A DNA stretch of 64,000 bases from Mizuhopecten yessoensis (Eukaryota): positions 91,092 to 155,091 of the forward strand of contig NW_018407152.1 of NCBI RefSeq assembly GCF_002113885.1, read 5' to 3'. Of the stretch, positions 3,001-5,040 are shown piece after piece. Every line of letters begins with the position of its first letter. Position 1 is the stretch's first letter. The position numbers are program-made.

Positions 3001-5040
3001 TCTCACTGTGAACTCAACCGCAGCATCTGTTTTCTGATTGACAAGATGGTGGTTGTATACTAGCTTCTGCATGATTGGTAGAAATTCGCATACCTTTTGA
3101 TTTTGCTCAAATTTTGTATATTCATGTAATCTGGCACTGCAACTTCCGTTCTCCTATTTGCGTTTGTTTTTCCGAATACAGGAGTAGGTTGGGGACATCT
3201 GTAATGGCCTGCCCCCATTACAACTACCACTTGTTCCTTTTATACCTCCATGTTGATGTATTGCCAAACTTGTTTATAAAATGTAAACTTCCCAACTTCT
3301 GCTCAGACTTAAAATGCTTGACACATTGAATCTTGTGCTCAAATCGGGGACAGGCGAGACATCTAATTACGCGTAATTCTTGTATATTACCTGTAACTGT
3401 TGATATTTTGTTGTTGGGTTATGTACTTTTTCAATGGAATTCACAGATAAATAGAAAGGTCCTACTGGGTATATGATAATTATAACACATCTTCTGTATG
3501 GTACAATTTAATAATAATGTTTTTTGGTCAAAATGCATGGATTTTTTTTGTGTAAAATTATTAATATGAATTAAGTCAAGTTTTGTTCTACATTTCAAGA
3601 TACCTGTTTTACACCATAAAATAATTTTAACACATTATTTGCAGATGTTTAGCTCGCCTGCCTCTGGAATAATCATTAGGATAAAAATTGAATATCAGTA
3701 ACCAAGATTTGATCTGTCCTTGACTTGCTCTTTTGTTCTTTCATTTGATCTGGATGAAGACCTTTGAAGGGCAGCTATTCAGGCCCTTTGACATCTTGAT
3801 TTATGGCATTTCTCATATTTTCTCAAGAACAAATTAAGAACTTGAATATAGTTAACTAAAACATTTATGACAGCTATAGGCAGTATAGGCTGCCAGAAGT
3901 TTCATTATCTTTTTTAATAGAAAGTACCTTCTGAAAAGCAGGAGGTACTGTCTTATGTGGGCCGCAGGGCCACACAGAGGCTGTAGGCCTCCGCCGAGGG
4001 CCACAGGCCCGAGTCAGGGGGAGGGCAAGCAGGCCCCCACACCTCCCTCTTCTCATAAGTGAATTGAGGTTAATAGGAAAACAGTCCGAAAATTGAAATA
4101 CTTTTGAATGTCTTTTTATTGCTATTATTGTTGGCCGGATTACAAATGTTTTTTCATTATTTTTATCAGACTATTCATCTATGTGAGTTTGATTTATTTC
4201 TGTATCAGTTAATAGAGTGTATGTCTGTATTCAGTTAATAGAGTGTATTTGAATTTTTAGTTGACTTGTTTGATGCGGCTTTTAGAACATGGTGCAAGTT
4301 TTGACTCGGCTACCAATCGCTTCAATCAGACGCCTTCACATATTGCAGCATTTGGTGGAAAGGGTCATTGTCTAAAATGGCTGCTACACTGTGGAGCAAT
4401 GATAGATCGTCAGGTAAATTTACTAAATGTTAGAAAAATAATAAAATTCTTTTTGTGATCGGACATTAATATGCTTCTCTTTTTTCTCTATTGCCCTTGT
4501 AGTTGGCTTGTTTGAGAAAGCTGACATCTTTAAGTAATGACGGTAAACTCTGTCACCTCGCTACCTCACGCTTCCGACAGAGTCCTCTGCATTTGGCGTC
4601 TCTCAGAGACCAACCTCATTGTGCTCAATGGATAATTCAAAGTGGAGCTAATATTGAAGTTCAGGTACATTCAACTAGACATTCATATTGGTAAATGAAT
4701 TCCTGGTAAATAGGATGTTCAACCCTCCACTACACGTTAATCTACGTGGGATTATATGCTGTTTACCATGGTTAAGAATAACATAACCTCATAATCTCAT
4801 TTATATTTGATGTAGGTCAGTCTTCCAAAATCTAGCTACTTGAATAATAGAACAAAAAACATAATACATGTACTTAATATATATTACTTGCTAAGAAAGT
4901 ATAGTGGGTGTTTTTTTTAACACATTAGTCATAGATGTTATATTCTTTAAAGCCAACATTAAAATTAATGCTAAATTACATAATTATGACTGTCACAAAT
5001 TATAAACTATATGAGGTTAAATGTTACAATGTTTGTATAA

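What the first reader, a model, noticed from the sequence alone, without database searches (positions are those of the whole stretch)
4261..4664. Tandemly duplicated ANKRD10 exon 2: candidate mutually exclusive ankyrin-surface swap
Seen: exons 2A (153 nt) and 2B (162 nt) are homologous end to end (L.CL..L...AT.RF.Q.P.H.A......HC..W....GA.I..Q), both phase 0-0, and separated by only 89 nt. A possible branch point (CATTAAT near 4464-4470) lies about 55 nt from the 2A donor, near the distance where steric exclusion operates. Inference: choosing 2A or 2B replaces the middle ankyrin repeats and so the binding surface. Including both would also stay in frame and lengthen the array.
Basis: partly seen in the sequence, partly recalled or inferred. 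Interest (0 to 1): 0.72.

Follow-up and report, generated by a model that had tools for sequence, protein, structure and literature searches.

The report
Ancient alternative exon pair in scallop ANKRD10
Two neighbouring look-alike exons of a scallop ankyrin-repeat gene are an old duplication that relatives annotate one at a time, giving two versions of the protein's middle repeats; it is a real but ordinary kind of alternative splicing.

Summary
Exons 2A (4261-4413, 153 nt) and 2B (4503-4664, 162 nt) are open, AG/GT-flanked, phase 0-0 and 89 nt apart. They are homologous (BLASTP E=7e-12), far above the ankyrin background.

The window is scallop, not human: 2A is 100% identical to Mizuhopecten yessoensis ANKRD10-like X2.

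2B is conserved, 89% to Ylistrum balloti X1. In Ylistrum, Ostrea edulis and Mya arenaria, isoform pairs of one gene carry either 2A or 2B. Of 40 named lophotrochozoan proteins, 14 carry the A type only, 22 the B type only and 4 both in tandem. One of those four has the "isoform X" name style.

A-type exons form one clade (100/99) that includes an annelid. A duplication inside molluscs is rejected (p-AU 0.010).

Each exon encodes about 1.6 ankyrin repeats, so double inclusion breaks the register.

The mechanism of exclusion is not shown. The predicted branch point lies 55 nt from the 2A donor, just above the ~50-nt steric limit. No transcript data for this species could be checked.

Verdict: a new member of a known kind; moderate interest.

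The parts
1091..1291 (+). Exon 1, coding part. It begins at ATG 1091; the database model P0010 starts further upstream at 989. It ends ...WAAHFGK in phase 0, with donor AAG|GTAGGT. It encodes ANK1 and the inner helix of ANK2.
4138..4164 (+). AU-rich box upstream of 2A, complementary (27 nt, 74%) to 4434-4460 in the spacer. Weak lead only for an RNA loop around 2A.
   Evidence: Duplex of 3961-4260 with 4414-4502: -39.6 kcal/mol against -31.2 +/- 3.7 in shuffles; 1 of 100 shuffles as low.
4261..4413 (+). Exon 2A (A type), 153 nt, 51 aa. It encodes the outer helix of ANK2, the finger loop and ANK3. Its pyrimidine tract is poor (11 of 22 Y). Donor CAG|GTAAAT.
   Evidence: (100% to M. yessoensis X2)
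4414..4502 (+). Intervening intron, 89 nt, of U2-type GT-AG form. AG-free from 4434 to 4500. No stable fold of its own (z = +0.87).
4464..4470 (+). Predicted branch site CATTAAT with branch A at 4469. It lies 55 nt from the 2A donor and 33 nt from the 2B acceptor.
   Evidence: prediction from consensus only, not mapped
4474..4498 (+). Strong pyrimidine tract of the 2B acceptor (19 of 22 Y at positions -25 to -4).
4503..4664 (+). Exon 2B (B type), 162 nt, 54 aa. It covers the same structural elements as 2A, with a 3-residue longer finger loop. Donor CAG|GTACAT.
   Evidence: 48 of 54 identical to the 2B exon of Ylistrum balloti isoform X1
5047..5138 (+). Exon 3 (DYLGETP...), encoding ANK4. It is the common downstream partner of 2A and 2B.

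Best explanation
2A and 2B are the two copies of an ancient tandem duplication of exon 2 of the ANKRD10 orthologue of a scallop (Mizuhopecten yessoensis or a very close relative). They are used as alternative, essentially mutually exclusive exons: exon 1 is joined to either 2A or 2B, and that exon to exon 3.

The two proteins differ only in the outer helix of ankyrin repeat 2, the finger loop between repeats 2 and 3, and the whole of repeat 3. This is the centre of the repeat stack.

Shown here: the homology, the intact splice signals, the conservation of both copies, and the one-or-the-other use in annotated isoforms of relatives.

Inferred: that this scallop also splices 2B, and that the two forms bind different partners.

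Inferred and weak: how double inclusion is avoided. My best guess is a combination of three things. The 2A donor and the 2B branch site sit at the edge of the steric limit in an 89-nt intron. A weak 2A acceptor competes with a strong 2B acceptor under regulation. Selection acts against the out-of-register double-inclusion protein.
For: (1) Exon-by-exon searches. 2B finds 4 proteins among 18 candidates, all bivalve ANKRD10-like. 2A finds 8 among 9 candidates, including M. yessoensis X2 at 100%.

(2) Same-gene isoform pairs. Ylistrum X1 (B) and X2 (A) are shown. Ostrea edulis X3 (B) against X2 (A), and Mya arenaria X3 (B) against X2 (A), are identical outside exon 2 and the C-terminal exons.

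(3) Counts. One search listed 120 rows. The 40 named lophotrochozoan rows were classified: 14 A only, 22 B only, 4 both. Among the 30 with the 'isoform X' name style: 10 A, 19 B, 1 both. Of 8 unnamed short-contig proteins: 3 A only, 3 B only, 0 both, 2 unclassifiable.

(4) All four tandem models have the order A then B, as in the window.

(5) Both copies are constrained. 2B is 48/54 identical to Ylistrum 2B. A-type exons are 51 aa in 19 of 19 rows. Over 28 species pairs, mean between-species identity is 67.9% for A and 48.2% for B.

(6) Age. The A type forms one clade of 19 rows at 100/99 support, including the annelid Owenia. A tree with all mollusc copies together is rejected, p-AU 0.010.

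(7) Register. Pfam Ank matches 2A residues 23-49 and 2B residues 26-53 to profile positions 3-29 and 3-30. Each exon therefore starts in mid-repeat.

(8) Models. The 2B-only protein is modelled at pLDDT 91-98 across the exon. In the tandem protein, residues 122-143, the start of the B part, fall below 50. The rest of the B part is at 90-94 with the same alignment depth of 4 rows.
Against: No RNA evidence for this species was available. The M. yessoensis protein found (X2) carries 2A only.

Four database proteins carry both exons in tandem: Pinctada imbricata, Tegillarca granosa, Sinanodonta woodiana and Dreissena polymorpha X2. The last has the name style of NCBI's evidence-guided pipeline. 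Co-inclusion therefore cannot be excluded.

Both exon lengths are multiples of three, so neither double inclusion nor double skipping would be removed by nonsense-mediated decay.

An 89-nt intron with a standard branch site 55 nt from the donor looks spliceable by the ~50-nt criterion.

Annotated isoforms are models, not junction counts. Clustering at 90% hides an unknown number of isoforms.
Confidence: 0.8

Rival explanations
1. Both exons are normally included together as constitutive tandem exons. The protein then has an enlarged ankyrin domain, and the single-exon isoforms are minor or annotation noise.
For: Four models carry A followed by B in frame: Pinctada, Tegillarca, Sinanodonta and Dreissena X2. 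Both exons are multiples of three. The 89-nt intron has ordinary signals. In the Dreissena model the second half of the B part still forms a confident repeat.
Against: 36 of 40 named lophotrochozoan proteins carry one exon only, and so do 29 of the 30 with 'isoform X' names. None of the 6 classifiable unnamed short-contig proteins has both. Three of the four tandem models bear 'hypothetical protein' names typical of ab initio prediction; that reading of the name style is my own knowledge. Double inclusion inserts about 1.6 repeats, and the orphan helix is modelled at pLDDT below 50.
Confidence: 0.07
2. 2A and 2B are two independently regulated cassette exons. All four combinations occur (A, B, A+B, neither), and exclusivity is only statistical.
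For: Both lengths are 3n. In C. elegans, 8 of 41 candidate clusters were such tandem cassette pairs, and their exons were 3n long except those carrying natural termination codons (PMC4165533, passages). Dreissena X2 has both exons. No hard exclusion mechanism was found here.
Against: None of the 43 named proteins classified lacks exon 2 altogether. Skipping or doubling breaks the 33-residue register.
Confidence: 0.1
3. 2B is a decayed or unused pseudo-exon in this scallop, and only 2A is spliced.
For: The only M. yessoensis protein retrieved carries 2A. B copies evolve faster than A copies.
Against: 2B is open and has the better acceptor (19 of 22 Y) and a GT donor. It is 48/54 identical to the exon used in Ylistrum X1. 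It still scores above Pfam's Ank cut-off, 24.1 against 21.1 bits.
Confidence: 0.03

Closest known systems
Alpha-tropomyosin exons 2/3 and OGDH exons 4a/4b (mutually exclusive pairs enforced by steric hindrance, with the branch point too close to the upstream donor)
   Same: A homologous adjacent exon pair with a short intervening intron. The downstream exon has a long pyrimidine tract and an AG-free zone.
   Different: In OGDH the branch points lie 25-41 nt from the donor, under a ~50-nt limit (PMC7969005, passages). The tropomyosin case is recalled from memory. Here the only good branch consensus is 55 nt from the donor and at a normal 33 nt from the acceptor. The defining feature is therefore not met on prediction.
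C. elegans mutually exclusive clusters with 3n exons and introns too short to excise (PMC4165533, abstract and passages)
   Same: Both exons are multiples of three, so decay of mis-spliced mRNA cannot enforce the choice. The exons are homologous.
   Different: Those introns are 14-30 nt, under a ~40-nt minimum for that species. Here the intron is 89 nt. The minimum intron size in scallops was not determined.
COQ-2 alternative exons of helminths, annelids and molluscs (PMC7434440; search listing and start of abstract only)
   Same: Listed by a search for 'mutually exclusive exons' and 'mollusc' (14 and 15 occurrences). From recall: a homologous exon pair that changes the protein's specificity.
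   Different: A different gene and protein class (an enzyme active site rather than a repeat scaffold). I did not read its text, so its taxon range and exon details are recalled.
ATE1 exons 7a/7b and other pairs governed by competing RNA structures (PMC7797038, PMC6071210; listings and starts of abstracts only)
   Same: Tandem-duplicated exons. A weak complementary box pair brackets 2A.
   Different: No conserved docking or selector elements could be shown. No orthologous DNA was available. The box pair is AU-rich and marginal (1 of 100 shuffles, three comparisons made).
Human ANKRD10 splice isoforms (PMC11882939, passages)
   Same: The orthologous gene family. That paper reports that one isoform (ANKRD10-2) binds MYC and the other does not, a precedent for isoform-dependent partner binding.
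   Different: The passages I saw do not describe a duplicated exon 2. The one deuterostome species pair classified, amphioxus (2 rows), shows a single 51-aa exon-2 segment in each row. The 66 named vertebrate rows were not classified. No human sequence was used.

Membership tests
Ankyrin repeat (Pfam PF00023 Ank) | Match to the Ank profile above the curated cut-off (21.1 bits) | tested here: met
   2A scores 25.2 bits and 2B 24.1 bits. Exon 3 scores 29.0 bits.
ANKRD10 orthologue group | Best named relatives across animals are ANKRD10 or ANKRD10-like proteins, with the same exon-1 and exon-3 junction motifs | tested here: met
   (names as given by the sources). Junction motifs WAAxFGK and DYxGETP were found in all 43 named rows, 3 of them only after the pattern was relaxed. 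A reciprocal best-hit test was not done.
Mutually exclusive exon pair from tandem exon duplication | Adjacent, homologous exons of like length with the same phase and intact splice sites | tested here: met
Mutually exclusive exon pair from tandem exon duplication | Mature transcripts carry exactly one of the two | tested here: inconclusive
   Met in annotated isoforms of relatives: same-gene pairs in 3 species, and 36 of 40 proteins with one exon. Four models have both. No transcript data for this species could be reached.
Steric-hindrance type of exclusion | Distance from the upstream donor to the branch point below about 50 nt | tested here: not met
   The predicted branch A at 4469 is 55 nt from the donor. 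The limit comes from PMC7969005 passages. The branch point is predicted, not mapped, and the limit is from vertebrates.
U2/U12 spliceosome incompatibility type | One flanking intron with U12-type donor and branch consensus | tested here: not met
   All three introns start GTA and end AG. None has the U12 donor or branch motif.
Exclusion enforced by nonsense-mediated decay | Exon lengths not multiples of three, so that double inclusion or double skipping shifts the frame | tested here: not met
   153 and 162 nt
Competing RNA secondary structure type | Conserved docking and selector sequences that pair alternatively | tested here: inconclusive
   The spacer alone has no stable fold (z = +0.87). 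One AU-rich box pair brackets 2A. Conservation could not be tested because no orthologous DNA was available.

The most novel reading that the evidence does not exclude
The A/B exon pair arose before molluscs and annelids parted, possibly in the ancestor of all sampled lophotrochozoan phyla. It has been kept as a one-or-the-other switch for over half a billion years. The A copy is almost frozen: 51 aa in 19 of 19 rows, with 68% mean identity among bivalves. The B copy is freer: 50-56 aa, 48% mean identity, and a finger loop of variable length. ANKRD10 would then have two anciently separate partner-binding faces selected by splicing. This would be one of the few cross-phylum mutually exclusive pairs in a pure protein-interaction scaffold.
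Probability: 0.45. Interest if true: 0.55.

Novelty: new member of a known kind. Interest (0 to 1): 0.4.

Why it matters
Homologous mutually exclusive exons are a well-known way to vary a protein locally. This one sits in a poorly understood ankyrin scaffold, and it seems to be very old.

It gives a clean natural experiment on ANKRD10. The two isoforms differ only in one finger loop and one and a half repeats, so partner screens with the A and B forms could reveal what the protein binds.

It also flags an annotation trap. Three of the 10 models without the 'isoform X' name style fuse both exons. That gives an ankyrin domain that is out of register.

Tried and rejected
1. Spliceosome incompatibility and decay-based exclusion were rejected from the sequence.

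2. A fold of the spacer with its exon edges is no more stable than shuffles (z = +0.87; 163 of 200 shuffles fold as well).

3. Duplex scans between intron segments gave the following. Spacer against the downstream intron: 58 of 100 shuffles as low. Upstream against downstream intron: 74 of 100. Upstream against spacer: 1 of 100, kept only as a lead. The first version of this script timed out. The 19 inverted-repeat pairs include a pair joining the 2A acceptor to just after the 2B donor (18 nt, 83%). I did not pursue it, since its conservation cannot be tested.

It was meant to show whether the M. yessoensis, Pecten and Argopecten clusters hold 2B isoforms. That stays open.

5. My first motif rule for 'A type' wrongly labelled the chiton row (Liolophura) as A. 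By sequence and tree position it is B, and it was corrected.

6. 'Which copy is ancestral' was left open. The A copy is more similar overall to the amphioxus exon (54.5% against 46.0%). By eye, in the consensus lines, A has its own derived residues while B shares others with the outgroups.

7. B-type monophyly is neither shown nor rejected (p-AU 0.11).

8. Literature. 'ANKRD10' with 'mutually exclusive' found 11 papers; none of the 10 listed titles concerns this exon pair. 'ANKRD10' with 'Crassostrea' found 0. The search was too broad to be informative. One search failed on phrase length and was not repeated.

9. Not used: the representative-protein search (it carries no names, and 50% clusters merge the isoforms), the structure-library search and the complex prediction.

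Full report
**What is there**

The window has about 35% G+C and one N, at 14965, which I left as it is. It is not human.

The 51 codons of exon 2A are 100% identical to 'ankyrin repeat domain-containing protein 10-like isoform X2 [Mizuhopecten yessoensis]' (P0010). The exon-1 reading frame and one C-terminal exon of the window also read as in that protein. The window is therefore from the Yesso scallop or a very close relative.

The joined model of the window was not built, searched or folded. Everything said about whole proteins rests on proteins that the database returned.

**Check of the observation**

- Exon 2A is 4261-4413, 153 nt (P0001).
- Exon 2B is 4503-4664, 162 nt (P0002).
- Both are open, preceded by AG and followed by GT, and separated by 89 nt.
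- Exon 1 ends at 1291 after a full codon (...HFGK), and exon 3 starts at 5047 (DYLGETP). Both exons are therefore phase 0-0. The junctions in P0010 (2A) and in P0004 (2B, Ylistrum balloti) confirm this.
- BLASTP of 2A against 2B gives E=7e-12, 15 of 35 identical. Over the full length the identity is 37%.
- The other ankyrin repeats of a whole protein match 2B with at most 13.9 bits. The likeness is therefore specific, not the repeat consensus.

**Are both exons real, and how are they used?**

The 2B search found 4 proteins among 18 candidates:
- Ylistrum balloti X1, 48 of 54 identical;
- Crassostrea virginica X5;
- Ostrea edulis X3;
- a Pinctada imbricata 'hypothetical protein'.

The first three have 2B in place of 2A. 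The Pinctada protein has A followed by B.

The 2A search found 8 proteins among 9 candidates, all with the A exon alone.

Ostrea edulis X3 and X2, and Mya arenaria X3 and X2, are identical outside exon 2 and their alternative C-termini. The Ylistrum pair is likewise. These are isoforms of one gene that swap the exon.

A profile search gave 927 proteins at E<=1e-10, of which the best 120 were listed. I classified the 43 named invertebrate and amphioxus rows. I dropped the 66 named vertebrate rows and 3 unnamed rows that score like vertebrates.

Of the 40 lophotrochozoan rows:
- 14 carry the A type only;
- 22 carry the B type only;
- 4 carry both, always in the order A then B, as in the window.

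The four are Pinctada imbricata, Tegillarca granosa, Sinanodonta woodiana and Dreissena polymorpha X2. Among the 30 rows with the 'isoform X' name style, 1 has both. Among the other 10 rows, 3 have both. Reading that name style as NCBI's evidence-guided pipeline is my own knowledge, not a tool result.

Of 8 unnamed proteins from short contigs, 3 have A only, 3 have B only, none has both, and 2 lack the motifs.

**Age**

In a tree of 49 exon-2 segments (54 columns), the 19 A-type rows form one clade with support 100/99. The clade includes the annelid Owenia and the gastropods Haliotis and Patella. The B-type rows form an unresolved grade next to the single exon of Limulus and amphioxus.

A tree holding all mollusc copies together, meaning a duplication inside molluscs, is worse by 32.7 log-likelihood units, p-AU 0.010. 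I named that group after seeing the tree, and the columns are few.

B-type monophyly is not rejected, p-AU 0.11. The duplication therefore predates the mollusc-annelid split. Whether it is older is open.

Over 28 pairs of bivalve species, the A copy is more conserved than the B copy in 26. Mean identity is 67.9% against 48.2%. A is always 51 aa, while B ranges from 50 to 56 aa.

**What the swap changes**

Pfam's Ank profile matches 2A residues 23-49 and 2B residues 26-53 to profile positions 3-29 and 3-30 of 33. Each exon thus begins in the middle of repeat 2, at its outer helix. It then runs through the finger loop and ends near the end of repeat 3.

The B copy has a finger loop 3 residues longer and a different inner helix. 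That fingers and inner helices form the usual binding face of ankyrin domains is established knowledge, recalled here.

An AlphaFold2 model of the 2B isoform of Ylistrum is confident across the exon. Ten-residue blocks over residues 81-140 have pLDDT 91-98, and the helices are at 80-89, 107-113 and 117-125.

**Double inclusion**

It stays in frame but inserts about 1.6 repeats.

In the model of Dreissena X2, the B part is residues 119-174. Residues 122-143, the orphan outer helix and loop, have pLDDT below 50. Residues 151-174 are at 90-94. The alignment depth is the same 4 rows (1-4) all along the B part. This is suggestive only, since the alignment was shallow there.

**Mechanism of choice**

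- All three introns are GT-AG without U12 motifs.
- Both exons are 3n long, so decay cannot police the choice.
- The spacer is AG-free from 4434 to 4500.
- The spacer has two yTnAy matches: A4469 within CATTAAT, and one 8 nt from the donor.
- A4469 is 55 nt from the donor. This is just above the ~50-nt steric limit given in PMC7969005 (passages).
- The 2A acceptor has a poor pyrimidine tract (11 of 22), and the 2B acceptor a strong one (19 of 22).
- The spacer has no stable fold of its own.
- One AU-rich box upstream of 2A (4138-4164) is complementary to 4434-4460. The upstream-spacer duplex is lower than 99 of 100 shuffles. This is a lead, not a finding.

The mechanism is therefore not shown. 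I take regulated competition at the edge of the steric limit as the most likely mechanism, with low confidence.

**What stayed unchecked**

- Transcript evidence for this species.
- Supplements of the papers cited were not opened.

**Papers**

- PMC11882939, PMC7969005 and PMC4165533: passages only.
- PMC7434440, PMC6071210, PMC7797038, PMC5740500 and PMC5224494: search listing and start of abstract only.
- The alpha-tropomyosin example is recalled.

**Verdict**

This is a real, conserved, alternatively used exon pair. It is a new member of a known kind, already implicit in database isoforms of relatives. It was not found in print by my searches.

Noticed in passing
window 8650-8922, 11356-11613, 13417-13683 (+): The same gene seems to have three alternative 3'-terminal coding exons. 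The first matches the C-terminus of Ylistrum X1 (40 of 57 identical). The third reads as the C-terminus of M. yessoensis X2. The second ends ...KCMALSSHYI, like the ends of the Crassostrea X5, Mya X2, Haliotis X7 and Mercenaria X2 proteins, but the match is weak (E=0.006). The exon-2 choice and the C-terminal choice may combine.
   Followed up: partly
window 20638-22679: A 24-nt satellite of about 84 copies (83% matches). It explains the strong GC and AT skew of 20001-24000.
   Followed up: partly
window 40427-41276; 43582-45257; 56643-57952: Three more tandem arrays: 22-nt x 36 (a block of 44% G+C), 75-nt x 22 and 54-nt x 24. Their nature is not examined.
   Followed up: no
window 18697-19156: A 180-nt unit repeated 2.6 times at 99% identity. 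Long open frames run on both strands across it. This looks like a young duplication or part of a mobile element.
   Followed up: no
window 4247-4264 and 4671-4688: An 18-nt stretch over the 2A acceptor is 83% complementary to the sequence just after the 2B donor. If it pairs, it would loop out both exons or mask the 2A acceptor. It may be chance in AT-rich DNA.
   Followed up: no
database proteins P0005, P0020, P0028, P0021 (not in the window): Gene models of four bivalves fuse the A and B exons into one protein. Three of the four are 'hypothetical protein' models. This is a likely recurrent annotation error for this gene.
   Followed up: partly
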